Virus record (IMG/VR): IMGVR_UViG_3300032030_000014
Coordinates: 67,919-131,918 of that record
DNA from: a virus
Reading direction: 5' to 3' (one strand)
Length of the DNA stretch: 64,000 nt
How positions within the stretch are numbered: the first letter of the stretch is position 1; each line of letters opens with the position of its first letter. The notes under the pieces were generated by a model that saw only the letters and a list, made by a program, of their open reading frames with translations, made no database searches and had not been told where the DNA came from. A program made the position numbers and the translations under genes. Positions 631-20,495 of this stretch are shown piece by piece.

Positions 631-640
631 ATATATAAAA

Positions 641-692: not shown

Positions 693-725
693 AAATATAT
701 AAAATGGTGAAAGGAGAATTAAAAA

Positions 726-1259: not shown

Positions 1260-1299
1260 ATATGTTGATACAACAGCAATTATGTAGGTCATTGGAAAT

Positions 1300-2793: not shown

Positions 2794-2805
2794 AGGAGTA
2801 TTACA

Positions 2806-4423: not shown

Positions 4424-4507
4424 AAGGTTGATAGTGATTAAAGTGATTATAAGAAAAGTTAAATTTATTGATAGGTAGTGATAGTGTGAAAGGAGGTTGA
4501 TTTTCTA

Positions 4508-6286: not shown

Positions 6287-6329
6287 TACACAACTTTTGA
6301 CCTAATTGAAAAATTAGGAGGAAAGTTTT

Positions 6330-7094: not shown

Positions 7095-7125
7095 GCATAA
7101 CCCCTTATTTTTATAGGAGTTTATA

Positions 7126-7620
7126 ATGATAGATAATATTAATTTAGAAATTCATGCGGATATGGCAGCAATTAAAGGAGGAAAGGGCAATCCTATTCTT
7201 TTTGAACTTCCAACCTCAGTTACTTATACATTAGACGATGCTAAAATAAATGAAGATATATTTTCCGCCTTATGTCAGAGTATGGCACAAGTTGGAACAT
7301 CTGCAAAAGATGTAGGAGAAGCATTACGGAAACTCTCTATTTGTTTATATGATAAAGATAAACAAGAATTTAAATCTACCAAGGATATTTTAGAAGAACT
7401 GGCTGATGAATGGAATGAAATTGGTTGTATTAATCCTGCTACACCAGAAGAAATTTCGCAGGCACTGGCTGGACCGGCAACGCCTGAAGCAACCGAAACC
7501 CCAAACCAAAATGCCGATTTCGATTTTTTGGAGCAAAATGCTTATAAAGAAGTTGAAAATATTTTTGATGGGGAACAGTTTGGGCAGATAGTCCCACTTG
7601 ACATACCTAAAAATTTATGA
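7126..7620 (+). CDS. hypothetical acidic protein (164 aa)
   Basis: Ribosome-binding site TAGGAG 10 nt upstream of the ATG. No TAG. TGA stop. Confidence 0.5.
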   Translation: MIDNINLEIHADMAAIKGGKGNPILFELPTSVTYTLDDAKINEDIFSALCQSMAQVGTSAKDVGEALRKLSICLYDKDKQEFKSTKDILEELADEWNEIGCINPATPEEISQALAGPATPEATETPNQNADFDFLEQNAYKEVENIFDGEQFGQIVPLDIPKNL

Positions 7621-7626
7621 TATAAT
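7598..7626 (+). promoter_or_regulatory. consensus sigma-A promoter TTGACA-17 nt-TATAAT
   Basis: Exact -35 at 7598-7603 and -10 at 7621-7626. It overlaps the last codons of the 7126 gene and sits upstream of the ATG at 7663. Confidence 0.5.
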
Positions 7627-7662
7627 ATTTATAAGAAATAAAAGTAGGGAGTTTTTTATTAT

Positions 7663-8016
7663 ATGGATCAATATGTAGCAACAAAATTGATACAAGAAGA
7701 ATGTGATTATGATGAAGATTTTAAAAAGCAAGTTGAATTGTTAGATCAATATGATTTTAGCGAATTTATAACAGATGGTAGAAGTTTATGGAACCTACGT
7801 GATGTTATTGAACAAAAATATGATAAACACTTTTGGGAAAAATATGGTGTTTATGTATTTGAAGATATGAGTGGTGAAGATACTTGCAATTATTTTGCCA
7901 GTAGATATAATGTATGGTTTCAAGAATATATGGATTGGGTGGTGAGACACGACCATGGAGCTAACGAAAAAACAAGAAGACGGACTGAAGATAGCATTAG
8001 AGAGATGGAAAAATAA
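7663..8016 (+). CDS. hypothetical protein (117 aa)
   Basis: ORF behind the promoter above. Its 3' end overlaps the helicase start by ~60 nt in another frame. Confidence 0.45.
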   Translation: MDQYVATKLIQEECDYDEDFKKQVELLDQYDFSEFITDGRSLWNLRDVIEQKYDKHFWEKYGVYVFEDMSGEDTCNYFASRYNVWFQEYMDWVVRHDHGANEKTRRRTEDSIREMEK

Positions 8017-9157
8017 AGAAAAATATACAGTAATTTCAGGATACGCAGGAACTGGTAAAAGTACGCTCATAAAATTTATTATTGCGGCTATGGGTCTCTA
8101 TCCCAATGAAGTACGATATGTAGCTTATACAGGCAAAGCCGCAAATGTTTTGAAAAACAAGGGATGTCCAGGAGCAACAACAGCTCATAAATTAGTTTAT
8201 CATGCAAAGATGATGCCAAACGGCAAATACGTTTTTACTCCTAAAAAAGTTTATGAAATGGAACGAGAAATCAAAGTTGTTGTAGTTGATGAAGTTTCAA
8301 TGTTACCGAAAAGAATGTGGGATCTCCTTTGTCAATATAATTTCTATATCCTTGCTTGCGGCGATCCCGAACAATTGCCTCCTGTGCCAGACGGAAAGGA
8401 AGACCCTGATAATCATGTCCTTGACAATCCTCATGTTTTTCTTGATGAAATTATGAGACAGGCACAAGAGAGTGAAATCATTCGTTTATCAATGCATATC
8501 AGAGAAGGCAAACCACTACTTACTTTCCCTGTTCAAAATGAACAGGTTATGATTTTTAACAAAAAAGATGTAACCACTTCGATGATGACTTGGGCAGATC
8601 AAGTGCTTTGTGCTACAAACCGCAATAAAGCCACCCTTAATCAGCAAATGCGGCAAGCCTATGGTTTCCTTCCAGAAATTCAAGTTGGCGATAAAATTAT
8701 CAATGTTCATAATGAATGGGAAATTTGTTCTACTAAAGAGAATCCTTTGACGAATGGGGTCATTGGTAAGATTACTCAATTAGAAACTCAAGACTGGGAG
8801 TATCCATATTGGCTAAGAAATGAAAAATTAGTAGTGCCAATTTTAGTTGCCACAATTACAGGTGACGAAGAGGGAGAAGAATTTCAAATGCTGCCTTTTG
8901 ATTATACAGAAATTTTGACAGGGCAGCCTTCTTTGAGTAGCAGAGAAGAATATACTATTCTAAAAAAGTTAGAAATGCAAACTCCTCTGCACGCACACTT
9001 TGGCTATGCTATTACAGTATGGAAGGCTCAAGGTAGCGAATGGAATAAAGTATTACTCTTCCAGGAAACAGGATGGCCTCGTCAGCCAGACGAACGCCGC
9101 AGATATATGTATACGGGTATTACTCGTGCGGTAGATAAATTAGTGGTGGTGTCATAA
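7955..9157 (+). CDS. SF1 DNA helicase, Dda/RecD/Pif1-like (AAA_30)
   Basis: Walker A GYAGTGKST, Walker B VVVDEVSM, motif III ILACGDPEQLPPV, C-terminal TVWKAQGSEW. No TAG. Confidence 0.8.
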   Translation: MELTKKQEDGLKIALERWKNKEKYTVISGYAGTGKSTLIKFIIAAMGLYPNEVRYVAYTGKAANVLKNKGCPGATTAHKLVYHAKMMPNGKYVFTPKKVYEMEREIKVVVVDEVSMLPKRMWDLLCQYNFYILACGDPEQLPPVPDGKEDPDNHVLDNPHVFLDEIMRQAQESEIIRLSMHIREGKPLLTFPVQNEQVMIFNKKDVTTSMMTWADQVLCATNRNKATLNQQMRQAYGFLPEIQVGDKIINVHNEWEICSTKENPLTNGVIGKITQLETQDWEYPYWLRNEKLVVPILVATITGDEEGEEFQMLPFDYTEILTGQPSLSSREEYTILKKLEMQTPLHAHFGYAITVWKAQGSEWNKVLLFQETGWPRQPDERRRYMYTGITRAVDKLVVVS

Positions 9158-9813
9158 TGGGATTATATACAAATAATGGCCTATTAAATGGCTATAAAAA
9201 GAATAATAAAGAAAGAGCCGAGTTGGATTATTATGCAACTCCAACCGCAGAAGTTGAAAACATTCTCAATGTTCTACAATATAATTTTTCTGATAAAATT
9301 ATATTAGAGCCTTGTATCGGCGGAGGACATATGCTTGATGGTATTATCAATTACATTGATAAAAACAATCAATCTCCAAAATCAATTATTGGAACAGAAT
9401 GGACTGATAGAGGATACCAAAACAATAGATGCAATATTGTTTATGGATTGGACTTTTTAGATGATGATTATCCCGCTAATAAAGCGGACGTAATTGTTAT
9501 GAATCCTCCATATGTAACTCTTGAGCCTTTTCTTATTCGCGCTCTTGAGATTGCCAAAAGAGATTTAATTGTGCTTTGTCGCACCCAGGTTCTCGAAGGC
9601 GCAAGCCGATATAAAAATATTTTTGCGAATAATCCTCCTGATGATATTTATCAATATATTGACAGAATCCAATGTTGGAAAAATGGCAAGAAGCCTAAAG
9701 AGTCATCTGCCCAAGCATATTGCTGGCTTGTGTGGAAAGATATAAATATCACCGGAACAGCTGTTCGTCCTAATATTACACCGCAGTTACATTGGATTCA
9801 TCGAGCAGATTGA
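9157..9813 (+). CDS. orphan N6-adenine (amino) DNA methyltransferase, NPPY class
   Basis: Motif I EPCIGGGHM and motif IV VIVMNPPY. Its ATG overlaps the helicase stop (TAATG). No TAG. Confidence 0.7.
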   Translation: MGLYTNNGLLNGYKKNNKERAELDYYATPTAEVENILNVLQYNFSDKIILEPCIGGGHMLDGIINYIDKNNQSPKSIIGTEWTDRGYQNNRCNIVYGLDFLDDDYPANKADVIVMNPPYVTLEPFLIRALEIAKRDLIVLCRTQVLEGASRYKNIFANNPPDDIYQYIDRIQCWKNGKKPKESSAQAYCWLVWKDINITGTAVRPNITPQLHWIHRAD

Positions 9814-9838
9814 TTTATATAAAAAAATATGTTATAAT
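9810..9838 (+). promoter_or_regulatory. sigma-A promoter TTGATT-17 nt-TATAAT upstream of the polymerase gene
   Basis: -35 at 9810-9815, 17-nt spacer, TATAAT at 9833-9838. GGAGG ribosome-binding site, then ATG at 9867. Confidence 0.5.
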
Positions 9839-9866
9839 ATAAGTATGATAAAAATGGAGGTTATTT

Positions 9867-12800
9867 ATGAGACCATACTTTAATTGTCATACACATACAA
9901 TGTATAGTAATTTAAGATTAGTAGATTCAATCAATAAACCAGAAGATTTAATTAATAAAGCAATAGAATTAGGACTTTCTGGAATTGCGATTACAGATCA
10001 TGAATGTCTATCAGCACATATTGAAGTTGAAAAGCATATGAAGGATGTAAAGAAAGAGCATCCCGATTTTAAGATTGCATATGGTAATGAGATTTATTTG
10101 GTTGATGAAAGAAAACCAGGTCAAAAATATTATCACTTTATTCTTATTGCAAAAGATGCAATCGGTCATCGTGCCCTTAGAGAATTGAGTTCAAAGGCAT
10201 GGATGAATTCATATGTTGATCGCAGAATGGAAAGAGTGCCGACAACAAAAGCGGAATTAAAAGAAGTAGTAGAAAAATTTAAAGGTCATTTAATTGCGAC
10301 AACCGCCTGTATTGGTGGTGAATTACCAAGTCTTGCAATTATTTATTCAAAAGCAAGAATAGTAAATGATAATACAAATGCGATGTTGTATTATAAGCAA
10401 ATAAATGATTTTTTAAATTTTTGTATAGATTTATTTGGAGAAGATTTTTATATTGAATGTGCTCCAGGAACAGATAACGATCAAGTCACAGCAAATATAA
10501 TTCTGCGAAAGATAGCAGATTATTATGGTATTAAAATGGTTGTAGGCACGGACGCACATTATCTTACTAAGAATGAACGGAGTGTTCATAAGGCTTACCT
10601 AAATTCTAAAGAAGGAGACAGAGAAGTAGATTCATTTTATGAATTTACTTATCTTATGGACTCAGACGAAGTTACAAATTTATTGTCTAAGTCTTTTACT
10701 GGAGAGAATAATACTGTAGATAAAATACTTGATAATACTTTAGAATTACAAGAAAAGATACAAGAATATTCGCTCTTTCATAAACAAGATATACCTTCCG
10801 TTGTAGTAAAAAATTATCCACAATATTTGGATATGAAAAAATATAATTTCAGCGAAGAATTAAGCAATGTTTTTGATACAAAATATCCTCATCTAATGGA
10901 TCTGTTTTGTAGTGATGATGTTCAAAATAGATATTGGGTAAATCAATGTTTTGAAGCATTGATTGATAAGGGTATCGGAATGAATGAAACTTATATTGCT
11001 GAACTGGAAGAAGAAGCAAGAGTAAAAAGTGTTATCAGCGAAAAGTTGGAAACAAATATGTTCCGTTATCCTAATACGCTTCAACATTATATTGATTTGA
11101 TTTGGGATTGCGGTTCAATGGTAGGAGCCGGACGAGGTTCATCTTGTGCGGCATTAAATCATTATTTGATGGGTATTACTCAGCTTGATCCAATAGAATG
11201 GGAACTTCCATTCTTCCGTTATTTAAATGATGAACGTGTTGAGTTGGGTGATATTGATATTGATATTTGTCCTTCCAAGTGCGGTCTGGTTTTACAGAAG
11301 ATTGCGGCAGAACGCAGTCAGATGTTTAAAGATGATGTTCCGGAATGGGCGAAGAAATCTTTCGGATGTACGCGTATTTCAACTTTTGGAACCGAGGGCA
11401 CAAAGTCAGCAGTTCTAACTGCGTGTCGTGGCTATCGCTCAGAAGATTATCCAGAAGGAATTGATGTAGATCAAGCACAGTATATGGCATCTCTTATTCC
11501 GCAAGAACGTGGTTTTCTATGGCCGATCAAAGATGTTCTTGAAGGGAATGAAGAAAAGAATAGAAAGCCGGTTGGCACTTTTATTCGTGAAGTAAATAAT
11601 TATCCAGGTCTTTTGGATATTATAAAAGGCATCGAAGGTTTGGTAAATAAACGGAGTTCTCATGCATCTGGTATTGTTCTATTCGATGGCGATCCGTTTG
11701 AACATAGTGCATTTATGAAAACTCCAAAAGGAGAAATCATAACTCAATATAACTTGCATGATGCAGAATATATGGGTTTGACAAAATATGATTTTCTGGT
11801 AACAGAAGTTCAGGATAAAATTGTTCAAACAATTCAGTTCCTCCAAGAGGATGGAGAAATTGAGAAAGATTTGAGTTTGCGTGAGATATACAATAAATAT
11901 CTACATCCAAGTGTTTTGCCAATAAAGACAGATACAAAAATGTGGGATGCTCTTGGAGAAGTTTCAGTTATCAATACATTCCAGTTTGATAGCGCAGAAG
12001 GTTCAAAAGCGGCAAAGCAGTTGAAGCCTCGCACAATTCTGGAAATGGCTGATGCGAATGGTTTGATCCGTTTGATGGGTGAAGAAGGTCAGGAACGTCC
12101 AATTGATAAGTATTATCGTTATAAAAACGATATTAGTTTGTGGTATGAAGAAATGGATAATTTCGGTTTGACAAAAGAAGAACAGAAAACATTGGAGCCA
12201 TACTTCAAACCATCTTATGGTGTTCCACCCAGCCAAGAGCAGCTAATGAAGATGTTGATGGATCCGAATATTTGCGGTTTTACCTTGGGCGAAGCAAATA
12301 ATGCTCGTAAAATTGTAGGTAAGAAGCAAATGTCAAAAATTCCAGCACTTCGTCAACAGGTTCTGAATAGTGCGGCAAGTCCTCGTTTGGGTCAGTATGT
12401 CTGGCGATTTGGGGCTGGGCCGCAGATGGGTTATTCATTCTCAGTTATTCATGCTCTTGCATATAGTTTTGTAGGAGCACAAACATTGTATCTTGGCACT
12501 CATTGGAATCCGATTTATTGGGATACAGCGTGTCTGGTAGTCAATAGCGGTTCTTTGGAAGATGCGGTTGATGAAGATGGCGAAGCGTTGTATGATGATG
12601 AAGAAGAGACAGAAGATACAACAAAGAAGAAAGCAACAAGTACTGATTACGGTAAAGTGGCGAAAGCGTTAAATGATATTATTGATGCTGGAATAAATGT
12701 CAGTCTTGTAAATATAAATGGTTCTGATTTTGGTTTCAAACCAGATGTAAAGAATAATAGAATTTTGTTCGGTATGAAAGCATTGTTGAATGTGAATGAT

Positions 12801-13859
12801 GATTTGGTAAATAAGATAATTGAAAATCGTCCATACCGAGGAATTAAAGATTTTTATAATCGTATAAAGCCAACAAAACAAGCAATGGTATCGCTTATAA
12901 AAGCCGGTGCGTTTGATGATATGATGGAACGTAAACTGGCAATGACTTGGTATATTTGGGAAACTTGTGATAAGAAGTCAAGATTGACTTTACAGAATTT
13001 CCCAACATTAGTAAAGCAAGATATGGTTCCAAAAGATACTTCTGAACGTCAATTAGCATATCGTGTTTATGAATTCAATCGTTATTTAAAAGCAATGTGT
13101 AAAGATTCAAAGCATACTCTTGATTATGTTCTAAACGCAAGAGCGATTGAGTTTTTATACGAATTAGGTTTTGAAAATATGATTGAAGATAATGAACTCT
13201 TGAATATGAAAAAGTGGGATAAAAAGTATCAGGTATTTATGGATACATTTAGAGATTGGCTGAAGGAAGATGGAGAGAATATTCTAACAGAATTAAATAC
13301 TCGAATCTTCAAAGCCGATTGGGATAAATATGCCGGTGATGCAAATTATTCTGCTTGGGAAATGGAAGTTTTATGTTTCTATAAACACGAACATGAATTG
13401 GCAAAAGTCGATATGAATAAATATGGTTTGAGTAATTTTAATGATTTGCCAGAAGAGCCAGAAGTAGAGAGAACTTTCTATAAAAATAATAAAGCAATTC
13501 ATTTATTCAAACTTAGTCGTATCGCAGGAACTTGTATTGCAAAGAATAAAGTTAAAGGCGTCGTAACTATCTTAACAACAGATGGTGTTGTAAATGTCAA
13601 ATTTAGAAAAGAATATTTTGCATTGTTTGATAAACGTATCTCTGAAAAAGGAGAAGATGGAGTCAAACACGTTGTAGAAAAGTCTTGGTTTGATAGAGGT
13701 AGTATGATTATGGTACAAGGTGTGCGGTCGGGCGACACGTTTATTACGAAGAAATATGCATCATCCGTTGGTCATCAGTTGTATCATATTTTGAAGATAG
13801 ATGAAAATGGAGACTTGGTTCTTCAAAATGAAAGATATAAAGGAGAAGGCGGAGAATGA
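9867..13859 (+). CDS. dnaE: DNA polymerase III alpha subunit (DnaE-type C-family polymerase) with N-terminal PHP domain, 1330 aa
   Basis: PHP motifs CHTHTMYS / ITDHE / GTDAHY. The palm GDIDIDICPS...ISTFGTEGTKSAVL...HASGIVLFDG...YDFLVTEVQDKI aligns with E. coli DnaE PDFDVDFC...IITFGTMAAKAV...HAGGVVIAP...FDFLGLRTLTII. Also GYSFSVIHALAYSF versus GYGFNKSHSAAYAL. Zero TAG in 1330 codons. Confidence 0.9.
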   Translation: MRPYFNCHTHTMYSNLRLVDSINKPEDLINKAIELGLSGIAITDHECLSAHIEVEKHMKDVKKEHPDFKIAYGNEIYLVDERKPGQKYYHFILIAKDAIGHRALRELSSKAWMNSYVDRRMERVPTTKAELKEVVEKFKGHLIATTACIGGELPSLAIIYSKARIVNDNTNAMLYYKQINDFLNFCIDLFGEDFYIECAPGTDNDQVTANIILRKIADYYGIKMVVGTDAHYLTKNERSVHKAYLNSKEGDREVDSFYEFTYLMDSDEVTNLLSKSFTGENNTVDKILDNTLELQEKIQEYSLFHKQDIPSVVVKNYPQYLDMKKYNFSEELSNVFDTKYPHLMDLFCSDDVQNRYWVNQCFEALIDKGIGMNETYIAELEEEARVKSVISEKLETNMFRYPNTLQHYIDLIWDCGSMVGAGRGSSCAALNHYLMGITQLDPIEWELPFFRYLNDERVELGDIDIDICPSKCGLVLQKIAAERSQMFKDDVPEWAKKSFGCTRISTFGTEGTKSAVLTACRGYRSEDYPEGIDVDQAQYMASLIPQERGFLWPIKDVLEGNEEKNRKPVGTFIREVNNYPGLLDIIKGIEGLVNKRSSHASGIVLFDGDPFEHSAFMKTPKGEIITQYNLHDAEYMGLTKYDFLVTEVQDKIVQTIQFLQEDGEIEKDLSLREIYNKYLHPSVLPIKTDTKMWDALGEVSVINTFQFDSAEGSKAAKQLKPRTILEMADANGLIRLMGEEGQERPIDKYYRYKNDISLWYEEMDNFGLTKEEQKTLEPYFKPSYGVPPSQEQLMKMLMDPNICGFTLGEANNARKIVGKKQMSKIPALRQQVLNSAASPRLGQYVWRFGAGPQMGYSFSVIHALAYSFVGAQTLYLGTHWNPIYWDTACLVVNSGSLEDAVDEDGEALYDDEEETEDTTKKKATSTDYGKVAKALNDIIDAGINVSLVNINGSDFGFKPDVKNNRILFGMKALLNVNDDLVNKIIENRPYRGIKDFYNRIKPTKQAMVSLIKAGAFDDMMERKLAMTWYIWETCDKKSRLTLQNFPTLVKQDMVPKDTSERQLAYRVYEFNRYLKAMCKDSKHTLDYVLNARAIEFLYELGFENMIEDNELLNMKKWDKKYQVFMDTFRDWLKEDGENILTELNTRIFKADWDKYAGDANYSAWEMEVLCFYKHEHELAKVDMNKYGLSNFNDLPEEPEVERTFYKNNKAIHLFKLSRIAGTCIAKNKVKGVVTILTTDGVVNVKFRKEYFALFDKRISEKGEDGVKHVVEKSWFDRGSMIMVQGVRSGDTFITKKYASSVGHQLYHILKIDENGDLVLQNERYKGEGGE

Positions 13860-14281
13860 TAAAGTGTAAAAAATGCGGGGCAGTGATGTGGCGTGCACCA
13901 ATTGTATTAACATCTTACCCCGCTAAATATTAGTATAATTGTCCTCGTTGTGATAATATTGAATATTTATATGAGAAAGATGATACTAATATTGTTGAAG
14001 GTCCTCAACATTGGAAAAAAATACAAGAGGAGGAAATAAAATCAATTATGGAAAAAGAAAAAGATATGGTAAATCATCCAGCACACTATACCGCTGGAGG
14101 CATTGAATGTATTGATGCTCTTGCGGCAGCTACCGCTGGCTTAGAGGGGATTGAAGCAGTCTGTACTGCGAACGCAATTAAATATCTTTGGCGTTGGAAA
14201 CTCAAGAACGGGTCCGAAGATTTAAAAAAGGCTTAGTGGTATATCAACCACTTGATTGAGCATTTGGACAAAAAGGATTAA
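13856..14281 (+). CDS. zinc-ribbon plus DUF3310-like protein (~141 aa), read through two TAGs
   Basis: Its ATG at 13856 overlaps the polymerase TGA (ATGA). It is in frame with ORF 14048..14236. N-terminal CxxC...CxxC ribbon. HPAHYTAGGIECIDALAAA...NAIKYLWRW is the DUF3310 signature common in phages. Confidence 0.5.
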
Positions 14282-14355
14282 AATTTTAATTCAAAAACCT
14301 AAATATATTGATGGCAACTACAAAAAATACAAGATTTAGTGTGGAGGATTAAAAT

Positions 14356-16632
14356 ATGATTTTAGTTAGTAAAAGAGATGGAACATTAGTTCCATTTGAT
14401 AAAGAAAAGATTATAAACGCAATAAATGCAGCTTTCATTGAAGTAGATGGTACACTTTATGAAGATGATACTGCAAGAGATATTGCGGACGATATTGAAG
14501 ATTATTTTAAATATCAAGACGGAAATGGATGTAGTGTTGAAGAAATCCAAGACCTCGTAGAAGATTATCTAATGCGTTCAGAGCGTAGAGATGTAGCAAA
14601 AGCATATATCCGTTATCGTTATAAAAAAGAAGTCGCTCGTAATTATTAGCATGATTTTATTGATGCCATCAGAGAAAAACTATCAGCCGCAGACGTATAG
14701 AACCAAAATGCTAATGTAGACGAACATTCATTTGGCGGTCGCACAGGAGAAGCCTCAAGTGTAGTAACCAAAAAGCTCGCTCTTGATTATTTAATCTCTA
14801 AGAAAGCAAGAGAAAATCACGAAGGTAATATGGTCTATATTCATGACCTTGATGCCTATTATGTTGGTTCTCACAACTGTTTAAGCATTCCGTTTGACGA
14901 TCTCTTGGCTAATGGTTTTAATACTCGTCAAACAGACGTGCGTCCGGCAGGTTCTGTAAATACCGCTTTCCAACTTGTCGCTGTTATTTTCCAGCTTCAA
15001 AGTCTTCAACAATTTGGCGGAGTAAGTGCTACGCATCTTGACTGGACAATGGTTCCATATGTACGCAAATCATTTTATAAACATTTTAAAGATGGTATAC
15101 ATTACGTAGAATAGGTTATATACGATTGCACGCCTCCAGAAGGTATGGAAGTAAAAGATATACCAATTGATAGTGCTTTTTATGTAAGAGAAAAATATCC
15201 AAATGCTTACCGGTATGCTATGGATATGACAGAACGTGAAGTTCACCAAGCCGTTGAAGGAATGTATCATAATTTAAACACTCTTCAGTCCAGAAGTGGC
15301 AATCAACTTCCTTTTACTTCAATCAATTATGGCACTTGTACTTTACCAGAAGGAAGAATGATTACTCAAGCTCTCTTGGAAGTTTCTATTGAAGGACTTG
15401 GTAAATTACATAAAACATCCATATTCCCATGCGGAATTTTCCAATGCATGAAAGGAGTAAACCGTGATCCAGGAGACCCTAATTACGACTTGTATCAATT
15501 AGCTCTAGAATCTACAGCCAGAAGACTTTATCCTAACTACGCTAATGTAGACTGGTCAGGAAATGCGGGCTACGATCGAAATGATCCCAAAACTTATTTC
15601 TCTACCATGGGATGCCGCACAGCAAATGGTGCCGACATTAACGCAGAACCAGGAGTTAATCCTCAGACTAAAGATGGTCGTGGAAATATCTGCCCCGTAA
15701 CAATTATTCTCCCAACTCTTGCAATGATGGCTTGGGAGAAACTTGATAGTCAGCCTTGGGAAATCGATGAGGACGGCACAAAATATAAGAGTGGTAACGT
15801 TATTGATGCCTTTATGGAAATTCTTGATAATAAAATTCATGAAGCAAAAGATATGCTAATTGAACGCTTTGAGTGGATTTGCTCTCAATCTCCAGAAGCC
15901 GCAAAGTTTATGTATGAAAATAATACAATGCTTGGCTATCATCCAGAAGAAGGAATTAGGAGTGCATTGAAACATGGCACCATTGTTATTGGTCAGCTCG
16001 GCTTGGCAGAAGCTCTTCAAATTCTCATTCATCAAGATCATACGACTTCAGAAGGTATGATTTTAGCAAAACGCATTGAGTAGTTATTTAAAGATCGTTG
16101 TGCTGAATTTAAGCAAGAATATAAATTAAATTTTGGTGTCTATTACACACCTGCGGAAAATTTATGTTATACTGCATTAAAAAAATTCCGTCAACAGTAT
16201 GGAATTATTCCTAATGTTAGTGATAAAGATTTCTTTACGAATAGTATGCATGTTCCGGTGTGGCATCAAATTAGTCCATTTGAAAAGATTGATATTGAAA
16301 GTCAATTAACAGGTTATTCTTCTGCTGGATGTATTACTTATGTAGAACTTGATGCTTCTGCTATTCATAATACTAAAGCATTAGAGCAGATTGTTAATTA
16401 CGCTATGGACCACGATATTCCTTACTTTGCTATTAATGTTCCTTCTGACACTTGCCTTGATTGCGGTTTCCAGGGAGAAATCAATAATAAATGTCCTATG
16501 TGCGGCAGCTCTAATATTCAACAACTACGTCGTGTTACTGGATACTTAACAGGTAACTATACTACTGCGTTTAATCTCGGTAAACAAGATGAAGTGCATC
16601 ATCGAGTTAAGCATGTGGGGGTTATGGAATGA
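14356..16632 (+). CDS. nrdD: anaerobic ribonucleoside-triphosphate reductase NrdD (~758 aa) with four in-frame TAG codons
   Basis: ORFs 14356.., 14830.., 15145.. and 16246..16632 share a frame. The joins read through TAG at 14647, ~14695, 15112 and 16081. N-terminal ATP-cone (KRDGTLVPFDKEKI), FTNSMHVP, C-terminal Zn/glycyl-radical region CPMCGS...RVTGYLTGNYTTAFNLGKQDEVHHRVKH. Confidence 0.85.
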
Positions 16633-16823
16633 GAATTATTAAACATGGAGATAAATTCGAAATAGGAGAAGCCACTTGTCCAACTTGTCATTGTGTTTTT
16701 GCTTATACCAGAGAAGATATTTATTCAACATATAATAGAGACGAAGGATACGATGAATATTATGTAAATTGTCCTGAATGTATTCAAAATATCTTTATTC
16801 CTGCTAAGGAGGTAGAGATATGA
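16629..16823 (+). CDS. small zinc-ribbon protein (64 aa)
   Basis: CPTCHC...CPEC. Its ATG overlaps the nrdD TGA (ATGA). Confidence 0.45.
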   Translation: MRIIKHGDKFEIGEATCPTCHCVFAYTREDIYSTYNRDEGYDEYYVNCPECIQNIFIPAKEVEI

Positions 16824-17314
16824 GATACGCGGGTATAATTAAAAATGATATTGCCGCAGGTGAAGGAATGAATGTCTCATTCTTTGTTCAAGGATGTCCA
16901 ATCCATTGTCCTGGATGTCATAATCCACAAACCTGGGATTTTAATGGCGGAAAAGAATTTACCATGGATACTTTGAATGATATTCTCTATTCTATTGGAG
17001 AAAATGGTATTCAAAGAAATCTTAGTATAATGGGCGGCGAACCTTTATGTAAAGAAAATTTATTCCTAGTAAATCTTATTGTATCTAATGTATTAGAGAA
17101 ATATCCAACAATAAAAATTTATATATGGACTGGATATACTTATGAAGAATTAATAGGAAGAAATGATGAAATATTAAATAAACTATTAGATAAAATAGAT
17201 TATTTAATAGATGGACCTTTTATGATAAAAGAGCGAGATATTACTCTTGCTATGAGAGGCAGCCGCAATCAACGAATTTTAAATATGAAGGAACTTAGAA
17301 ATAATGGATAGTGA
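16820..17314 (+). CDS. nrdG: anaerobic RNR activating enzyme NrdG (radical SAM)
   Basis: The GCPIHCPGC cluster near the N-terminus and GGEP are typical of NrdG. One TAG at 17309-17311, immediately followed by TGA. Confidence 0.8.
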
Positions 17315-17678
17315 ACTTAAACTTTCTTTTTATGATTTAAATAAAAGTGCTTATGGTGCTTTTCCAGAATATGATAATATTAAAATCAATGAATTACAAG
17401 ATAGAATAAATGACTGGGAAGATTCCAGTAATTATTTTATGCTTTTATGTAATGATATAAAGTATTATACTGTTCTTCGTAGAACATAGCATAAAAAAGC
17501 AGAATTTCCAGATCTTGGCCAGGCTGTCACTGGACTTCTTTTGGAACGAGATTATACAATTCATGCAGATGAAATAACCAATGATTACTTTGAAATTTGG
17601 ATTAAAGATAAAAAAGATGATGACGTTCATATGTTTGCTTTATTCCCATATGATTGGGGGGTAATTAATTATGGCTAA
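17304..17678 (+). CDS. hypothetical protein (~124 aa, one TAG)
   Basis: ORF 17304..17489 continues in frame past the TAG as HKKAEFPDLGQAVTGLLLERDYTIHADEITNDYFEIWIK... to a TAA at 17676-17678. Confidence 0.4.
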
Positions 17679-17952
17679 AAAACTATTAATAAATATAAAT
17701 ATGTTTGACAGATATTCACCTATTTATTATGTTGAAGATGATCAACCAATTAGAGTTACTACTGTTCCTATTGATGAATTGGTAAATTATGTTCTTTATA
17801 ATGATCGATGGAATACTGGAATAGAAGAAATTGAAATTGACGGTAATAAAAATTTTATTCAAAAAATAGGTCAAGATTTTATCAATGAATGGCAAAGTAA
17901 ATTTTCAAATAGAAATGTGAGGATCTTAATCAATGGCGAAGTATTTAATTAA
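17671..17952 (+). CDS. hypothetical protein (93 aa)
   Basis: ORF whose start overlaps the previous stop (ATGGCTAA). Confidence 0.45.
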   Translation: MAKKLLININMFDRYSPIYYVEDDQPIRVTTVPIDELVNYVLYNDRWNTGIEEIEIDGNKNFIQKIGQDFINEWQSKFSNRNVRILINGEVFN

Positions 17953-18181
17953 TGATGTAACGACTTATAGAGTGGCAACAGTTGCCGATGTAGAAGCTCT
18001 TCACGAAGAGCTTCTCAATGATAATGCTTTTGAACTTACTGCTTTTAGTTATACTACTAAGTATATTAAAGTTAAGGGCGAAGTTGTAGAAGAGTACCAG
18101 GTTGTTAAGGCAAAAAAGGTATTTAATAATGAAAAGGAGCCTGATACTGACGTTGATGTAAAGTATGAGGTGAACTTCTAA
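17933..18181 (+). CDS. hypothetical acidic protein (82 aa)
   Basis: ORF. Its TAA overlaps the dUTPase ATG (TAATG). Confidence 0.45.
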   Translation: MAKYLINDVTTYRVATVADVEALHEELLNDNAFELTAFSYTTKYIKVKGEVVEEYQVVKAKKVFNNEKEPDTDVDVKYEVNF

Positions 18182-18762
18182 TGGAAATATTTCATGATTA
18201 TCCAAGGTTTGAATTAGTAAGTCAATTTGCCGATTAGACAGATTTGCTACCAAAACGAGCCACAAAATTTAGTGCGGGTTATGACTTTTTCGTGGCACAA
18301 GATACGATTGTCCCTGCGTTCTCAAAGAAAGCAAAACACATAGATAGTTATATCAACACAGCACAAATGGCAGGTAGAATGGAAAAATATAAATCTGAAT
18401 TTAATCTGGATGAAGTTGCTAAAATTACTAAAGATGCAAAAGAAAAACTAACTCTTGTTCCAACAGGAGTAAAGGCTTATCTTCCAGAAGGCACATATCT
18501 ACAACTGGCTGTTCGCAGTTCTTGTCCACTAAAGCATTGGCTTATTCTTGGTAATGGTGTTGGTATTGTTGATTGTGATTATTACAATAATCCTGATAAT
18601 GAAGGTCATATTTACTTTATGATTATAAATCTATTTCCCTATGATATTTTACTTCATCGGGGAGATAGAATTGGACAAGGAATTATCTTACCTTATTTTC
18701 TTGCCGAAGGAGATAATACCACAGCTGCTCGTATGGGTGGTTCTGGTTCAACTGGCCCATGA
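18181..18762 (+). CDS. dut: dUTP pyrophosphatase (trimeric dUTPase), one TAG at 18235-18237
   Basis: Motifs SAGYD, GIVDCDYY, RMGGSGSTG. The ATG at 18181 is in frame with the track ORF 18244..18762 through the TAG. Confidence 0.75.
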
Positions 18763-19244
18763 GAATACTCGCCTTAGACCAGGCGAGTAGAGTGTCCGGC
18801 TGGGCCATCTTTGATGGAGATACACTCGAAAAATACGGCAAAATTGATGTAAGTAAATATTTTGAACTTGGTGAAAGATTATATCAAATTCGCCAAGAGG
18901 TAGAACATTTAATAGACGATGAACATATTGATGCAATTGTGCTTGAAGATATTTATATGGATGGTTAGAGAGTAAATAACGTATAGACCTTTAAAGCACT
19001 TGCGGAAGTCTTTGGAGTATTATATGAACTTTGTATAGAAATGGAAAAGCCTGTGGAAGCGGTTCTTGCAGGCACTTGGAAATCTACTCTTGGAATTAAG
19101 GGTAAGACGAGACCTGAGCAAAAGCAGAATGCCCAGAAGTGGGTGGTAAATACTTACGGCAAAAAGCCAACTCAAGATGAGTGTGATGCCATTTGTATTG
19201 GTGCTCATAAAGTGCGTTCAATGGCTAATGATTGGGGCGAATAA
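18759..19244 (+). CDS. ruvC: RuvC-like Holliday-junction resolvase (~161 aa, two TAGs)
   Basis: ORFs 18759..18968 and 19041..19244 share a frame. MRILALDQASRVSGWAIF (catalytic Asp), ...LEDIYM (Glu), DECDAICIGAH (Asp-x-x-Asp) match the RuvC fold. Its ATG overlaps the dut TGA. Confidence 0.65.
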
Positions 19245-19253
19245 ACAAAAAAA

Positions 19254-19292
19254 GGGCGATAGTCTTAATTGACTATCGCCCTTTTTCTTTTT
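19254..19292. terminator. bidirectional rho-independent terminator between convergent genes
   Basis: Stem gggcgatagtc, loop ttaatt, stem gactatcgccc, with T-tracts on both strands (ctttttcttttt on +, A-run on the other side). Confidence 0.6.
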
Positions 19293-19782
19293 AATCATCA
19301 AAGCTACGATTTTCAGCTTTCATTTGTGCTCTTACTTTATCAACTACTCTATCATGAAGAGCATCTCCTCGGTGATTACCACCAAGCCCCTTATAAACTT
19401 CATAATCAACTTCAAATTCTTCATATTCATCAACTGTTATATAATGTCCTGATCCTAATAAGTATTCGCAAAAGTCTCTAAATTGTTTTCCCTAAATTGA
19501 CAAAATACCAGACCCCATATGATCAACATCTTTATGAATTTGATCTAATTCGTTCTGTAGTTTTTCATCTTCTTCTTTAGACTAAACTTCAACCTTAGAA
19601 ATTTCTGTCTCTAAGGTACTTATAATTTTACTACACATATTTTTCTCTTTTTCTTTCCATTTCTCTTCCATGCTCTTTTTTTGTAATTTAACATAGTGTT
19701 TTGCAAATAAAGCAATACCACCAGCAACAAGAGCACATAACCAATTTATCCAATATTTTGCAATCCATTCTAAAACTTCCAT
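19291..19782 (-). CDS. small membrane protein (163 aa) with an N-terminal transmembrane helix and a coiled-coil/acidic tail; two TAGs
   Basis: ORF 19582..19782 continues in frame past the TAG to a TAA at 19291-19293. The hydrophobic N-terminus is EWIAKYWINWLCALVAGGIALFA. GGAGG ribosome-binding site. Confidence 0.5.
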
Positions 19783-19879
19783 TAAAACTCCTCCTTAATT
19801 TTTTGACATTTATTCTGTCTAAAATTATTTAAATATTAAAATAGAAATTTTATTAATTTTTGTCCTTAATAATAAAAAA

Positions 19880-19913
19880 GCCAGAGGAAAAATCCTCTGG
19901 CTTACTTTTTTTA
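19880..19913 (-). terminator. rho-independent terminator after the 19917..20312 gene
   Basis: Stem gccagagga, loop aaaatc, stem ctctggc. It is flanked by an A-run and a T-run, so it works on either strand. Confidence 0.55.
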
Positions 19914-19916: not shown

Positions 19917-20312
19917 TTATTTCTATTTTTGTTCTTTAACTGCAGATTCAATTAAAACAGTTATATATTCATCTAAATCTCCGATAATTTGTTCAAGATA
20001 AGTTAATACATCTTCTGACAGAGAAAGCATTACTGCTTCATAAACTTTTTTAAAAGCCTCTTCTTGTGCTTCTTTTGTAAAAGAATTTTCTTTTTTTAAT
20101 TCATCTACATAAGTTTGATTAACAGTAATGACTGTCTTAGTAACGAGTTCCTAAAGAATATCAATATAAAGAAAATATCTATCGTCTTTGACTTTTTCTT
20201 TTAATTGATTCGCTTTTGCATTAATCCACTTTACCGCAAAACCACCAAGTGCAATTAGTAGTGGAATTAATACAGTCTAAATAATAACTGGTAAAAGTTC
20301 TTTATAATCCAT
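19917..20312 (-). CDS. small membrane protein (~131 aa), holin-like topology (one N-terminal transmembrane helix); two TAGs
   Basis: Ribosome-binding site AAGGAGGG 7 nt upstream of the ATG at 20312. MDYKELLPVIIQTVLIPLLIALGGFAVKW then a charged helical tail. TAA stop. Confidence 0.45.
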
Positions 20313-20411
20313 ATATAAAACCCTCCTTATTTTTCTTGTTATTATTATAACAAAATTTTTATATAAATACAACTCTTTTCCGCCAAAGACCAAAAATTTT
20401 TTGGACAAAGA

Positions 20412-20466
20412 GGGAAAAATTCCCTTTTTAAGTTTTCATAAAGTATTGCGGGAGGGAAAAATTCCC
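20412..20466 (+). promoter_or_regulatory. two exact copies of the inverted repeat AGGGAAAAATTCCC (20411-20424 and 20453-20466), 42 bp apart, upstream of the TAG-rich + strand cassette
   Basis: Seen directly in the sequence. Each copy is a palindrome GGGAA-AAA-TTCCC. A third A-tract palindrome CCAAAAATTTTTTGG lies ~20 bp upstream. Candidate activator or repressor site, or part of a late promoter. Confidence 0.3.
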
Positions 20467-20495
20467 GTGAATTTTTGGTAAAAGGAGGTTTAGCA

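What the first reader, a model, noticed from the sequence alone, without database searches (positions are those of the whole stretch)
20385..20470. Two identical 14-bp inverted-repeat sites (AGGGAAAAATTCCC) 42 bp apart, plus an A-tract palindrome, directly upstream of the recoded + cassette
Exact repeats at 20411-20424 and 20453-20466. Each is a GGGAA-AAA-TTCCC palindrome spaced by four helical turns. The palindrome CCAAAAATTTTTTGG lies at ~20385-20399. The region lies between a terminator and the first ribosome-binding site and has no obvious sigma-A -10/-35. It looks like a binding array for a dimeric late activator or repressor, comparable to phage phi29 p4 sites. GGGAA/TTCCC stems recur in the late-region terminators at 23408, 29346 and 41141.
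Basis: seen in the sequence. Interest (0 to 1): 0.5.

Follow-up and report, generated by a model that had tools for sequence, protein, structure and literature searches.

The report
Private control region of phage cassette
The two identical palindromes are real and lie in the private on/off region of a conserved six-gene cassette in an uncultured rumen phage; one copy belongs to a conserved leader hairpin next to the ribosome-binding site and the other is a recent extra copy, so this is an uncharacterised but ordinary-looking gene switch, not a genome-wide late-gene signal.

Summary
GAGGGAAAAATTCCC (15 nt, not 14) occurs exactly twice, at 20410-20424 and 20452-20466. It is the only close exact repeat of at least 15 nt in the window (0.03 expected per 64 kb).

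The context was misread. The 183-bp region is a divergent intergenic region between a holin gene (minus strand) and a TAG-recoded six-gene cassette, c1-c6. It is not "terminator to RBS".

Comparison with about 20 related and 10 strain-level phage genomes shows:
- Site 2 is the conserved copy. It is the left half of a roughly 25-bp element. Its TTCCCG arm pairs with an upstream GCGGGA arm in a hairpin kept in 19/19 relatives. The hairpin abuts an invariant U-tract plus Shine-Dalgarno block.
- Site 1 exists as a palindrome only in this strain cluster and one relative (L188).
- The A-tract palindrome is the decayed remnant of a conserved 24-bp dyad.
- None of these motifs occurs elsewhere in the window or in relatives' 130-200 kb genomes.

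It is therefore a cassette-specific promoter/operator/leader, not a phi29-p4-like late-promoter array. The most likely mechanism is an unidentified factor bound to in-phase dyads around the c1 promoter, plus a 5'-leader stem-loop (about 0.4). A purely RNA-level attenuator is the main rival. The transcription start is unresolved. Interest is modest.

The parts
19917..20312 (-). Holin gene, divergent left neighbour (3 in-frame TAG)
   Evidence: phrog_13712 holin, E 1.3e-27. ATG at 20312-20310, preceded by TAAGGAGGG.
20344..20372 (-). Sigma-A-type promoter for the holin: -35 TTGTAT (20372-20367), 17-nt spacer, extended -10 TGT-TATAAT (20349-20344)
   Evidence: Read from the sequence. The same block is TTGCAT-17-TGC-TATAAT in L002, L187 and L237. 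Inference; no transcript data.
20336..20365 (+). Candidate upstream promoter P_A for the cassette: TTGTTA-18-TATATA, predicted start near 20372
   Evidence: Weighted sigma-A scan. A TATAAA/TAAAAT box at the same relative position occurs in at least 9 of 21 relatives. Weak and unverified.
20376..20418 (.). Large imperfect palindrome TTTTCCGCCAAAGACCAAAAA-T-TTTTTGGACAAAGAGGGAAAA, centred on 20397
   Evidence: the repeat finder I14: 21-nt arms, 71% complementary. It is homologous to TTTCCCAAAATTTTTGACAAAATTGGGAAA in distant relatives.
20380..20404 (.). Decayed R_up element, including the A-tract palindrome CCAAAAATTTTTTGG (20390-20404)
   Evidence: Aligns to the conserved 24-bp dyad CCAAAAATTYCCGGAAAWTTTTGG of relatives. 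Self-complementarity is 4/12 here against 7-12/12 in 18 relatives. A 1-nt T deletion in strains L241 and L247 makes the short palindrome perfect.
20401..20407 (+). Conserved TTGGACA box (-35-like), right edge of R_up
   Evidence: TTGG.C is invariant in alignment A1. It pairs with a TAAAAT-like -10 at 17 bp in at least 11 of 21 relatives, but not in the window or L188.
20410..20424 (+). Site 1: GAGGGAAAAATTCCC (dyad centre 20418). Left half is the older GGGAAAAT box; the right arm TTCCC is lineage-specific.
   Evidence: A palindrome here occurs only in the window's strain cluster (L239-L248) and L188. The GGGAAAAT half scores at least 6/8 at the homologous offset (+6/+7 from the R_up end) in 9 of 20 relatives.
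20407..20429 (+). Extended site 1 hairpin AAAGAGGGAA-AAA-TTCCCTTTTT with a T-run (terminator-like)
   Evidence: Flagged by the terminator scan. RNA MFE is -10.1 kcal/mol, z -2.0, against -7.1 on the minus strand. The T-run is broken by T20428C in strain L246 and absent in L188.
20433..20445 (+). Box B, TTTTCATAAAGTA: -10-like box (candidate TAAAGT, 20439-20444) or start region
   Evidence: T20436 and A20438 are invariant in A1. Distant relatives have TTTYATATAAnnATGGAAAG here. Its role is not established.
20446..20470 (+). Conserved leader hairpin: outer stem TTGCGGGAG / TTCCCGTGA, loop GGAAAAA
   Evidence: RNA MFE is -10.8 kcal/mol, z -2.05. A hairpin is present in 19/19 relatives with loops of 5-14 nt. 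On the covariance-model alignment 87.7% of cells pair, 2 pairs change on both sides, and 0/500 shuffles reach the score. T20468C in strain L240 turns a G.U into G-C.
20452..20466 (+). Site 2: GAGGGAAAAATTCCC (dyad centre 20460)
   Evidence: GGGAAAA(A)TTYCCG is conserved in most close relatives.
20454..20478 (.). R_down element GGGAAAAATTCCCGTGAATTTTTGG, a direct repeat of R_up
   Evidence: Count matrices. R_up and R_down are 23/25 identical in L001. Spacing is 74-75 bp in 13 of 21 but ranges 70-141. The element is split by insertions in L188 and L204.
20469..20493 (+). Invariant leader GAATTTTTGGTAAAAGGAGGTTTAG (Shine-Dalgarno at 20481-20488)
   Evidence: The window and all 7 relatives found independently through c4 carry this leader (6 base for base; L002 and L005 differ only in the length of the A-run before GGAGG), while c1 third-codon positions are only 57% identical pairwise. 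Other loci were found with this sequence as the probe, so their identity here is circular.
20496..23403 (+). Cassette c1-c6: c1 20496-20894, c2 20914-21153, c3 21150-21974, c4 21991-22416, c5 22416-23099, c6 23092-23403. c1-c5 carry 2-5 in-frame TAG; c6 has none.
   Evidence: ORF calling with TAG as sense. PHROG families of unknown function: 21718, 16490, 20016, 1233. Synteny holds in about 80 IMG/VR loci.
23405..23440 (.). Bidirectional terminator closing the cassette
   Evidence: 16-bp stem plus T-run.

Best explanation
The 183-bp holin/c1 intergenic region is the dedicated promoter, operator and leader of the c1-c6 cassette. The two 15-mers are two copies of the left half of a clade-specific element of about 25 bp (R = GGGAAAAATTYCCG-KGAATTTTTGG).

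Site 2 is the ancestral, conserved copy. It lies at or just after the probable start of the c1 mRNA. Its TTCCCG pairs with an upstream GCGGGA arm to give a conserved stem-loop. That stem-loop abuts an invariant U-tract plus Shine-Dalgarno block.

Site 1 is a lineage-specific extra copy built on an older GGGAAAAT box. It fills the spacer/-35 zone of the c1 promoter.

The A-tract palindrome is what remains of the conserved 24-bp dyad R_up.

Most likely mechanism: one sequence-specific factor, not yet identified, binds these in-phase dyads (centres 20397, 20418, 20460). It is probably a dimeric DNA-binding protein that reads G/C clamps plus A/T-tract shape. Binding would gate initiation at the c1 promoter. 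Repression by occlusion is the simplest reading, because the sites cover the -35/spacer and +1 regions. After initiation, the site 2 stem-loop acts on the mRNA as a 5' stabiliser or a weak attenuator.

Shown: the repeats, their conservation pattern, hairpin conservation with some covariation, and uniqueness in the genome. Inferred: protein binding, the direction of regulation, and the transcription start.
For: - The exact 15-mer pair is non-random.
- The region is a divergent promoter region.
- The motifs are unique to this locus in the 64-kb window. R is unique to the c1 locus in relatives' 130-200 kb contigs.
- R_up is a fixed-length 24-mer. G/C is invariant or nearly so at the ends and centre, while the A/T boundary drifts without compensation. 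That pattern suits indirect read-out by a protein, as documented for p4 (PMC1904284), and does not suit an RNA stem.
- R_down is a direct repeat of R_up (23/25 in L001).
- Dyad centres are 21 and 42 bp apart in the window and about 20 and 44 bp apart in L188.
- Within-genome copies share the A-run length: A5 in the window and L204, A6 in all three L188 copies. This suggests a common reader.
- No similarity extends beyond the 15-mer between the two 42-bp units (9/27 matches by direct comparison). The identity is therefore specific and not the residue of a larger duplication.
- The site 2 hairpin is present in 19/19 relatives with 2 covarying pairs, and a strain variant improves the stem.
- In the window and all 7 independently found genomes the leader is the same apart from A-run length in two, against 57% identity at synonymous sites.
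- Both 15-mers are identical in all 11 strain-level genomes.
Against: - No DNA-binding protein, sigma factor or antiterminator was found among the proteins scanned. The window covers only about a third of the genome.
- R_up-R_down spacing varies from 70 to 141 bp, and R_down is split by insertions in L188 and L204. Fixed-geometry looping between them is therefore not conserved.
- Site 1 is absent from most relatives.
- Loop lengths at site 2 vary from 5 to 14 nt, which argues against site 2 being a simple dimer operator.
- Both sites fold 3-4 kcal/mol better on the + strand through G.U pairs, which hints at RNA-level selection.
- The covariation control slid by -2 columns scores almost as well, because the arms are low-complexity.
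- Strain-level invariance is uninformative, because the flanking c1 coding DNA is equally invariant.
- The transcription start is unknown. Three weak candidate promoters exist.
Confidence: 0.4

Rival explanations
1. RNA-only leader. Transcription starts upstream, at candidate P_A (TTGTTA-18-TATATA, start near 20372). The A-tract palindrome, site 1 and site 2 are then three stem-loops in a 5' leader of about 125 nt. Sites 1 and 2, each followed by a U-run, act as weak tandem intrinsic terminators or attenuators, or as identical protein-binding hairpins in the manner of lambda boxB. Cassette expression would then need read-through or antitermination late in infection.
For: - Both sites are flagged as terminator-like on the + strand; the region has 12 such sites against 2.9 expected.
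- RNA MFEs are -10.1 and -10.8 kcal/mol with z about -2, and the + strand is 3-4 kcal/mol more stable than the - strand.
- The whole 20376-20500 leader folds at -33.7 kcal/mol, z -2.2.
- The hairpin followed by AAUUUUUGG is conserved in 19/19 relatives, with stem covariation and a G.U to G-C strain variant.
- In L188 site 2 is followed by a clean U6 run.
- A TATAAA-like box upstream of R_up recurs in at least 9 relatives.
Against: - The stems are much weaker than the phage's real terminators, which have 11-18-bp stems.
- The U-run after site 1 is absent in L188 and broken in strain L246.
- R_up shows uncompensated mismatches as an RNA stem, for example 3-4 U.U in L006 and L202.
- Site 1 is missing in most relatives.
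- P_A is weak and unverified.
- The 2:3 alternative pairing needed for a classical attenuator is only about 6 bp.
Confidence: 0.3
2. Only site 2 is functional, as the leader hairpin and part of R_down. Site 1 is a neutral, recent 15-bp copy made by gene conversion or slippage onto the pre-existing GGGAAAAT box, with no role of its own.
For: - Site 1's right arm is absent in all but one relative outside the strain cluster.
- Strain-level identity is uninformative, because the whole c1-proximal segment is nearly invariant.
- The GGGAAAAT half pre-exists in many relatives.
Against: - L188 is only 86% identical in c1 and has many substitutions around the site, yet it keeps a full palindrome at the same place with the same A-run change as its site 2.
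- 15/15 identity without flanking similarity is unlikely under neutral decay.
- The spacing of 4 helical turns is approximately kept in L188 (about 44 bp).
Confidence: 0.15
3. One reading: a phi29-p4-like array for a general late-gene activator that switches on late operons genome-wide.
For: The region has dyad symmetry with A-tracts, in-phase sites, a divergent promoter setting and a poor -35 for the cassette.
Against: - The motif is absent upstream of every other operon in the 64-kb window. The R element and the 14-mer core are restricted to the c1 locus in relatives' large contigs.
- No CTTTTT-N15-AAAATG site is present.
- The site length and spacing differ from those of p4.
- No p4-like protein was detected among the proteins scanned.
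Confidence: 0.05
4. No specific factor is involved. The phased A/T-tracts with G/C clamps form intrinsically curved DNA that acts as an UP-like or architectural element for the divergent holin and c1 promoters.
For: - The conserved feature of R_up is A/T-tract composition rather than exact sequence.
- A5 tracts are centred near 20394, 20417, 20459 and 20481, roughly multiples of two helical turns apart (read).
Against: - Exact 15-mer identity, an invariant CCGG core and invariant GG/CC clamps are not needed for curvature.
- T-tracts are not in phase.
- Curvature was not computed.
Confidence: 0.07
5. The small 5-bp-stem, 3-purine-loop hairpins are single-stranded DNA promoters for an N4-type phage RNA polymerase.
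For: The geometry (5-bp stem, AAA loop) resembles N4 early promoters (my own knowledge, not tested). The window encodes giant proteins.
Against: - The giant proteins scanned (2810 and 2653 aa) have no RNA-polymerase domain; the only hit is a sub-threshold BspA-type LRR match in the 2653-aa protein. The 1330-aa protein is a DNA pol III alpha.
- DNA hairpins are weak, at -3.5 to -4.4 kcal/mol.
- The sites precede a recoded, presumably late cassette, and occur only here.
Confidence: 0.02

Closest known systems
phi29 p4 binding sites at the A2c/A2b/A3 early-late switch
   Same: The setting is a phage of a Gram-positive host with a divergent promoter region. Dyad sites are dominated by A/T-tracts with few conserved G/C positions. 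In relatives, the R_up conservation pattern (fixed length, invariant G/C clamps, drifting A/T boundary) fits the indirect A-tract read-out shown for p4 (PMC1904284).
   Different: The p4 site is 5'-AACTTTTT-15 bp-AAAATGTT-3', with direct contacts only to G13 and T15. Here the dyads are 13-15 bp (window) or 24 bp (relatives) with a CCGG core. No p4-type site is present, no p4/p6 homologue was found, and the motif controls one cassette rather than the whole late programme.
Dedicated late-operon activators of Gram-positive phages (for example RinA of staphylococcal phages)
   Same: A single tightly regulated promoter region upstream of one operon is recognised by one phage-encoded factor (PMC3152322 abstract).
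   Different: RinA acts upstream of terS and the morphogenesis operon. Here the target is a cassette of unknown function next to the lysis genes. No RinA/ArpU-like protein was found in the window, and the direction of regulation is unknown.
5'-proximal stem-loops of Firmicute and phage mRNAs that stabilise transcripts (aprE leader, ermC, phage SP82 leaders; established knowledge, not tested here)
   Same: There is a conserved hairpin close to the probable 5' end, followed by a strong Shine-Dalgarno sequence. The hairpin stays next to the promoter-proximal box, not next to the RBS, when insertions occur in L188 and L204.
   Different: The 5' end is not mapped. The hairpin's 3' arm is also the core of a DNA repeat element (R_down). 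The loop sequence GGGAAAA is itself conserved in most relatives.
Intrinsic terminators and leader attenuators; lambda N/boxB nut hairpins (own knowledge)
   Same: These are short G/C-clamped stems with purine-rich loops, identical copies within one genome, followed by U-runs, located in a leader upstream of the first gene.
   Different: The stems are far weaker than this phage's bona fide terminators. The U-run after site 1 is not conserved. Both copies sit in one leader rather than in two operons. No N- or Q-like protein was identified.

Membership tests
phi29 p4-type regulator binding array | Site architecture 5'-(AA)CTTTTT-15 bp-AAAATG(TT)-3', with G at +/-13 and three A-tracts (PMC1904284) | tested here: not met
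   CTTTTT-N15-AAAATG has 0 matches in the window. The sites here are GGGAA-AAA-TTCCC (13 bp) and CCAAAAATTTTTTGG (15 bp).
phi29 p4-type regulator binding array | The same sites serve the global early-to-late switch, across several promoters | tested here: not met
About 110 kb of this phage's own genome was not available.
phi29 p4-type regulator binding array | A cognate p4 (and p6) protein is encoded by the phage | tested here: inconclusive
   No annotated regulator was found among the window proteins scanned with PHROGs, Pfam and NCBIfam. Most of the genome lies outside the window, and p4 is a small, fast-evolving protein.
Intrinsic (Rho-independent) terminator / leader attenuator | G+C-containing stem, 3-8-nt loop, U-run directly 3' of the stem | tested here: met
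   Both sites pass the consensus scan on the + strand: 20407-20429 (10 pairs) and 20446-20470 (9 pairs). MFEs are -10.1 and -10.8 kcal/mol.
Intrinsic (Rho-independent) terminator / leader attenuator | The hairpin plus U-run is conserved in relatives | tested here: inconclusive
   Site 2: the hairpin plus AATTTTTGG is present in 19/19, though partly by ascertainment. Site 1: the U-run is absent in L188 and broken in strain L246.
Intrinsic (Rho-independent) terminator / leader attenuator | The element lies inside a transcribed leader, downstream of the start | not testable with these tools
   No transcript data are available. Candidate starts lie both upstream (about 20372) and downstream (about 20450) of site 1.
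Conserved cis-regulatory RNA stem-loop (5'-UTR element) | Base pairing is maintained across relatives by compensatory change, with variable loop length | tested here: met
   87.7% of cells pair, 2 pairs change on both sides (7 cells), and 0/500 shuffles reach the score. The -2 slide control is nearly as good. Loops are 5-14 nt. Support is moderate only.
Known RNA families (Rfam 15) | A match to a curated covariance model | tested here: not met
   There are no hits in 20300-20500. The only sub-threshold hits lie on terminators at 19.2 and 19.9 kb.
Dimeric-repressor operator pair flanking a promoter | Two or more dyad-symmetric sites of the same sequence on one helical face, overlapping -35/-10/+1 | tested here: inconclusive
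   Sequence identity and 21/42-bp phasing are shown. Position relative to the promoter depends on an unmapped start. Binding was not tested.
MerR-type spacer operator | A dyad inside an over-long 19-20-bp spacer between good -35 and -10 hexamers | tested here: not met
   Site 1 does fill the spacer after TGGACA. However, the only hexamer with T1/A2/T6 (TAAGTT, 20429-20434) is 21-22 bp away, and there is no -10 in L188.
CodY box (AATTTTCWGAAAATT) | A 15-bp consensus with a single central W | tested here: not met
   No match with up to 3 mismatches at the locus; the window total is 18 against 19.4 expected. R_up in relatives has a 2-bp CG core, so its half-sites are out of register.
N4-type hairpin promoter | A phage-encoded N4-like virion RNA polymerase, with several hairpin promoters upstream of early genes | tested here: not met
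   No RNA-polymerase domain in the 2810-aa and 2653-aa proteins. The 1330-aa protein is a DNA pol III alpha. The sites are unique and precede a recoded cassette.

The most novel reading that the evidence does not exclude
One clade-specific element of about 25 nt works at two levels. As duplex DNA (R_up, site 1, R_down) it would be the operator set of a dedicated regulator. As RNA (site 2 plus its covarying 5' arm) it would be a leader stem-loop. Together these would add a private transcriptional and RNA gate to a lysis-adjacent cassette that is already gated translationally by TAG recoding. This would be a layered timing device in recoded phages of rumen Lachnospiraceae-type hosts.
Probability: 0.12. 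Interest if true: 0.55.

Novelty: new member of a known kind. Interest (0 to 1): 0.3.

Why it matters
TAG-recoded gut and rumen phages are thought to use recoding to delay translation of late and lytic genes (bioRxiv 10.1101/2021.08.26.457843). Almost nothing is known about their transcriptional control, and none has a tractable host.

This locus is a compact, clearly delimited cis-regulatory module of about 110 bp, with a conserved dyad, a conserved leader hairpin and an invariant translation-initiation block. It sits in front of a widespread cassette of unknown function. More than 580 IMG/VR stretches encode the c4 protein, and a homologue next to the lysis genes exists in the cultured Butyrivibrio phage Ceridwen.

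The module gives a concrete handle for finding the regulator and for dating cassette expression relative to lysis. It does not overturn anything known. Promoter-proximal dyads and leader hairpins are standard phage regulatory devices.

Tried and rejected
- General late-promoter motif. Rejected because every component motif, and the bipartite GGGAAA-N17-21-CATAnnnTA pattern, is unique to this locus. R and the 14-mer core occur only at c1 in relatives.
- Tandem 42-bp duplication. Rejected because outside the 15-mer the two units match at 9/27 positions, which is the random level for this composition.
- Long-range anti-Shine-Dalgarno pairing between the left half of R_up (ACCAAAAATT) and AATTTTTGGT. 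A perfect 10 bp pairs in the window, but the pairing is not maintained in L001, L006 or L202, which show G.G and U.U mismatches. Dropped.
- Weak Shine-Dalgarno-sequestering hairpin GAAUUUUU/GGAGGUUU. It appears in one MFE but not in the centroid, with z -0.19. There is no variation to test it against.
- Leader peptide. A 26-codon ORF (TTG 20401 to TAA 20481) reads both 15-mers in the same frame as K/REGKIP. It has no Shine-Dalgarno sequence and is not conserved; L001 reads TTG GGC GAA GAA GGA AAA TGA.
- Sporulation-sigma (sigma-K CATAnnnTA) and SpoIIID (GGACAA) look-alikes. There is no matching -35 'AC' at the right distance, so I treat these as coincidence.
- CodY box, p4 site, MerR-type spacer and N4 hairpin promoter: all not met.
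- Rfam and tRNA scans: nothing at the locus.
- Search for a regulator or a function among cassette and early proteins with PHROGs, Pfam, NCBIfam and PDB sequences: nothing beyond families of unknown function and a weak HExxH metallopeptidase signature in c6.
- GenBank phage DNA search and Ceridwen's upstream region: no related cis-element.
- Strand-asymmetry test: 14/19 favour the + strand, but the signal traces to essentially one G.U pair shared by descent.
- Contig ends as transcript ends: suggestive, but equally explained by assembly breaks.
Full report
**The observation**

The window reads ...CCAAAAATTTTTTGGACAAAGAGGGAAAAATTCCCTTTTTAAGTTTTCATAAAGTATTGCGGGAGGGAAAAATTCCCGTGAATTTTTGGTAAAAGGAGGTTTAGCAATG.... 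AGGGAAAAATTCCC occurs exactly twice, and no other window position matches even with 2 mismatches. The identical stretch is in fact 15 nt, GAGGGAAAAATTCCC, at 20410-20424 and 20452-20466, 42 bp apart. It is the only exact repeat of at least 15 nt within 100 nt anywhere in the window. Markov simulations give 0.033 such pairs per 64 kb. The A-tract palindrome is at 20390-20404.

**Context**

The window has 32.5% G+C. It makes sense as coding sequence only if TAG is read as sense: total ORF length (ORFs of 100 aa or more) is 23,182 aa with TAG as sense, against 10,126 aa under the standard code. In-frame TAGs are concentrated from 19.3 kb onward.

- The left border of the region is the start of a minus-strand holin gene (19917-20312; phrog_13712, E 1.3e-27).
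- The right border is the first gene of a six-gene plus-strand cassette, c1-c6 (20496-23403), closed by a bidirectional terminator at 23405-23440.
- The region is therefore a 183-bp divergent intergenic region, not a stretch between a terminator and an RBS.
- On the minus strand it carries a good sigma-A-type holin promoter, TTGTAT-17-TGT-TATAAT (read). The same promoter is clearer still (TTGCAT-17-TGC-TATAAT) in L002-type relatives.
- The cassette proteins belong to PHROG families of unknown function. Pfam, NCBIfam and PDB sequence searches add only a weak HExxH metallopeptidase signature in c6.
- No regulator was recognised among the early proteins scanned.
- The giant late proteins scanned are not RNA polymerases.

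**Relatives**

- The c4 protein has more than 580 matching stretches in IMG/VR, mostly on 100-200 kb contigs, with c1-c6 synteny.
- A homologue lies just downstream of the endolysin, holin-like ORFs and a terminator in the cultured Butyrivibrio phage Ceridwen. This points to rumen and gut Clostridia as hosts.
- The invariant leader was used as a probe and brought in 30 further loci.
- An exact-protein look-up of c6 gave ten strain-level genomes of up to 176 kb from rumen samples.

**What is conserved upstream of c1**

(i) R_up is a fixed-length 24-bp dyad, CCAAAAATTYCCGGAAAWTTTTGG. G/C is invariant or nearly so at both ends and at the CCGG core. The A-to-T boundary inside each half drifts without compensation. 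It is self-complementary at 7-12 of 12 positions in 18 relatives.

(ii) TTGGNCA follows immediately. It is paired with a TAAAAT-like hexamer 17 bp downstream in at least 11 of 21 genomes.

(iii) A GGGAAAAT box lies 6-7 nt after R_up in 9 of the 20 relatives. This box is the left arm of the window's site 1.

(iv) Next is a -10-like box (TCATATAC; TATAAT in distant clades).

(v) Next is a hairpin whose 5' arm (GCGGGA, CGGAAA, CGGAAAG, GGAAAGAA) covaries with its 3' arm (TCCCG, TTTCCG, CTTTCCG, TTCTTTCC). Its loops range from 5 to 14 nt.

(vi) R_down, GGGAAAAATTYCCGKGAATTTTTGG, is a direct repeat of R_up, with 23/25 identity in L001. The centre of R_down is the hairpin's 3' arm, and its left half is the window's site 2.

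(vii) Last is the block GAATTTTTGGTAAAAGGAGGTTTAG, which runs up to the start codon. The window and all seven relatives found independently through c4 carry it (six base for base; L002 and L005 differ only in the length of the A-run before GGAGG). Third-codon positions in the most conserved part of c1 are only 57% identical pairwise. For the probe-derived loci this identity is circular.

**Site 1 versus site 2**

Site 2 is conserved across the clade. Site 1 as a palindrome exists only in the window's strain cluster and in L188. L188 has GGGAAAAAATTCCC and GGGAAAAAATCCC about 44 bp apart, and all of its copies carry A6 instead of A5. L204 is the closest relative by c1 (88%). It has only site 2.

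In the window and in L188, site 1 fills the 17-bp spacer after TGGACA, and the TAAAAT-like -10 of other relatives is gone. Outside the 15-mer the two 42-bp units are unrelated, so the identity is specific rather than the residue of a larger duplication.

**Uniqueness**

TTTTGGACAAAG, GGGAA-N3-8-TTCCC, CCAAAA...TTTTGG and the bipartite GGGAAA-N17-21-CATAnnnTA pattern occur only here in the 64-kb window. The exact 15-mer never occurs twice on any IMG/VR contig.

**Structure tests**

- As RNA, site 1 folds as AAAGAGGGAA/UUCCCUUUUU at -10.1 kcal/mol.
- Both have z near -2, and both are 3-4 kcal/mol better than the opposite strand.
- Both are scored as terminator-like, but they are much weaker than the phage's real terminators.
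- As single-stranded DNA the hairpins are marginal.
- A covariance model built on the leader finds one copy per genome, plus R_up of L184 as a weak second hit.
- On the structure-aware alignment, 87.7% of cells pair, two pairs show changes on both sides, and no shuffle reaches the observed score. A -2 slide does almost as well, because the arms are low-complexity. The hairpin is therefore supported, but only moderately.

**Strain-level variation**

Three variants fall in the c1-proximal half:
- A T deletion that makes the A-tract palindrome perfect.
- T20428C, which breaks the U-run after site 1.
- T20468C, which converts a G.U of the outer stem to G-C.

Flanking coding DNA is equally invariant, so the identity of the 15-mers among these strains says little.

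**Interpretation**

The region is the private control region of the c1-c6 cassette. Two kinds of constraint are visible.

- R_up behaves like a protein-binding duplex site. It has fixed length, fixed G/C contact points, and A/T-tracts that may swap A for T. This is the pattern expected for indirect read-out, as shown experimentally for phi29 p4 (PMC1904284).
- The site 2 hairpin behaves like a single-stranded structure, with covarying arms and free loop length. It stays with the promoter-proximal box rather than with the RBS when insertions occur (L188, L204).

I therefore favour, at about 0.4, a composite mechanism. An unidentified factor binds the in-phase dyads around the c1 promoter. In this lineage those are the short palindrome, site 1 and site 2, with centres 21 and 42 bp apart. 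A 5'-leader stem-loop then acts on the mRNA.

The main rival, at about 0.3, is that everything is transcribed from a weak upstream promoter and that the sites are tandem attenuator or nut-like hairpins.

The decisive unknown is the transcription start. Sequence alone gives three weak candidates. Four short JGI contigs begin inside site 2, and two of them end exactly at the c6 stop or terminator. That would place the mRNA 5' end at site 2 if the samples are metatranscriptomes. It is equally well explained by assembly breaks at the edges of a conserved module with strain-variable flanks.

**Comparison with known systems and verdict**

The locus works like promoter-proximal operator or activator sites and leader hairpins known from many phages. 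It is not a member of the p4 site family, and it matches no Rfam family. CodY, MerR-type and N4-type readings fail their defining features.

It is a new, uncharacterised member of a known kind of element. It is of modest interest, mainly as an entry point into transcriptional control in TAG-recoded rumen phages.

Noticed in passing
L185, L195, L198, L201 (whole contigs); window equivalent about 20455-23410: Four short JGI contigs start inside site 2 of their own phage. Two of them (2776 and 2854 nt) end exactly at the c6 stop or the first bases of the terminator, so they span precisely the predicted c1-c6 unit. They are either transcript ends (if the samples are metatranscriptomes) or assembly breaks at the edges of a conserved module.
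   Followed up: partly
window 1-19500 versus 19300-64000: In-frame TAG codons are rare in the replication and nucleotide-metabolism genes and abundant in the holin, the cassette and the tail-like genes (up to 70 in one 2810-aa ORF). No suppressor tRNA lies in the window (0 tRNAs).
   Followed up: partly
L188:780-941(-) and L204:7403-7564(-): The two closest relatives carry unrelated insertions of about 50-65 nt inside R_down, between the site 2 hairpin and the U-tract/RBS block. L188's insertion has its own nested hairpin, and its site 2 gains a clean U6 run.
   Followed up: partly
L239:1012-1671 and L241:1008-1667; window 18762/18759 junction: Some strains carry a GIY-YIG homing-endonuclease gene (219 aa) between the dUTPase and RuvC genes. 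The window and the other strains lack it.
   Followed up: no
window 23444-29167 (-); L239-L248 downstream of c6: The large gene convergent on the cassette (1907 aa here) varies from 1075 to 1907 aa among otherwise near-identical strains, with Gp34_trimer, BppL_N or Laminin_G_3 hits. It looks like a hypervariable receptor-binding or tail-fibre locus.
   Followed up: no
window 628-640 and 692-704: The 13-mer TAAATATATAAAA is repeated exactly 64 bp apart in the intergenic region between the first two plus-strand genes. It may be a repeated promoter or operator box of the early region.
   Followed up: no
L238 (Butyrivibrio virus Ceridwen MN882553.2, 21118-26447): A cultured 39.7-kb Butyrivibrio siphophage carries a c4 homologue (48% identity) in a run of hypothetical genes directly after its endolysin, small holin-like ORFs and a terminator. 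This is the same lysis-adjacent position as in the window. Its upstream region has no R-like element.
   Followed up: partly
window 20401-20481 (+): A 26-codon ORF (TTG...TAA) reads both 15-mers in the same frame (KEGKIP and REGKIP), because 42 bp equals 14 codons. It has no Shine-Dalgarno sequence and is not conserved in relatives.
   Followed up: yes
L237 (ONYG01000072.1): A 3.3-kb contig carrying this phage's leader and c1 is binned in a rumen 'Methanobrevibacter' MAG (RUG748). This is almost certainly a binning artefact rather than a host signal.
   Followed up: no
window 19249-19286, 19878-19903, 23405-23440: Three long, perfect, bidirectional terminator hairpins (11-18-bp stems with A-runs and T-runs on both sides) bracket the m1 gene, the holin gene and the cassette. 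Each of these small units looks transcriptionally insulated.
   Followed up: no
window 9867-13859 (+), 14356-17314 (+): The phage encodes its own DNA polymerase III alpha-type replicase (PHP, alpha, finger and HHH domains) and a radical-SAM activase gene (16820-17314; Fer4_12/Radical_SAM hits on its strain-level counterparts). By eye, without a domain search, the upstream 758-aa ORF looks like an anaerobic class III ribonucleotide reductase. Both fit an anaerobic Firmicute host.
   Followed up: partly
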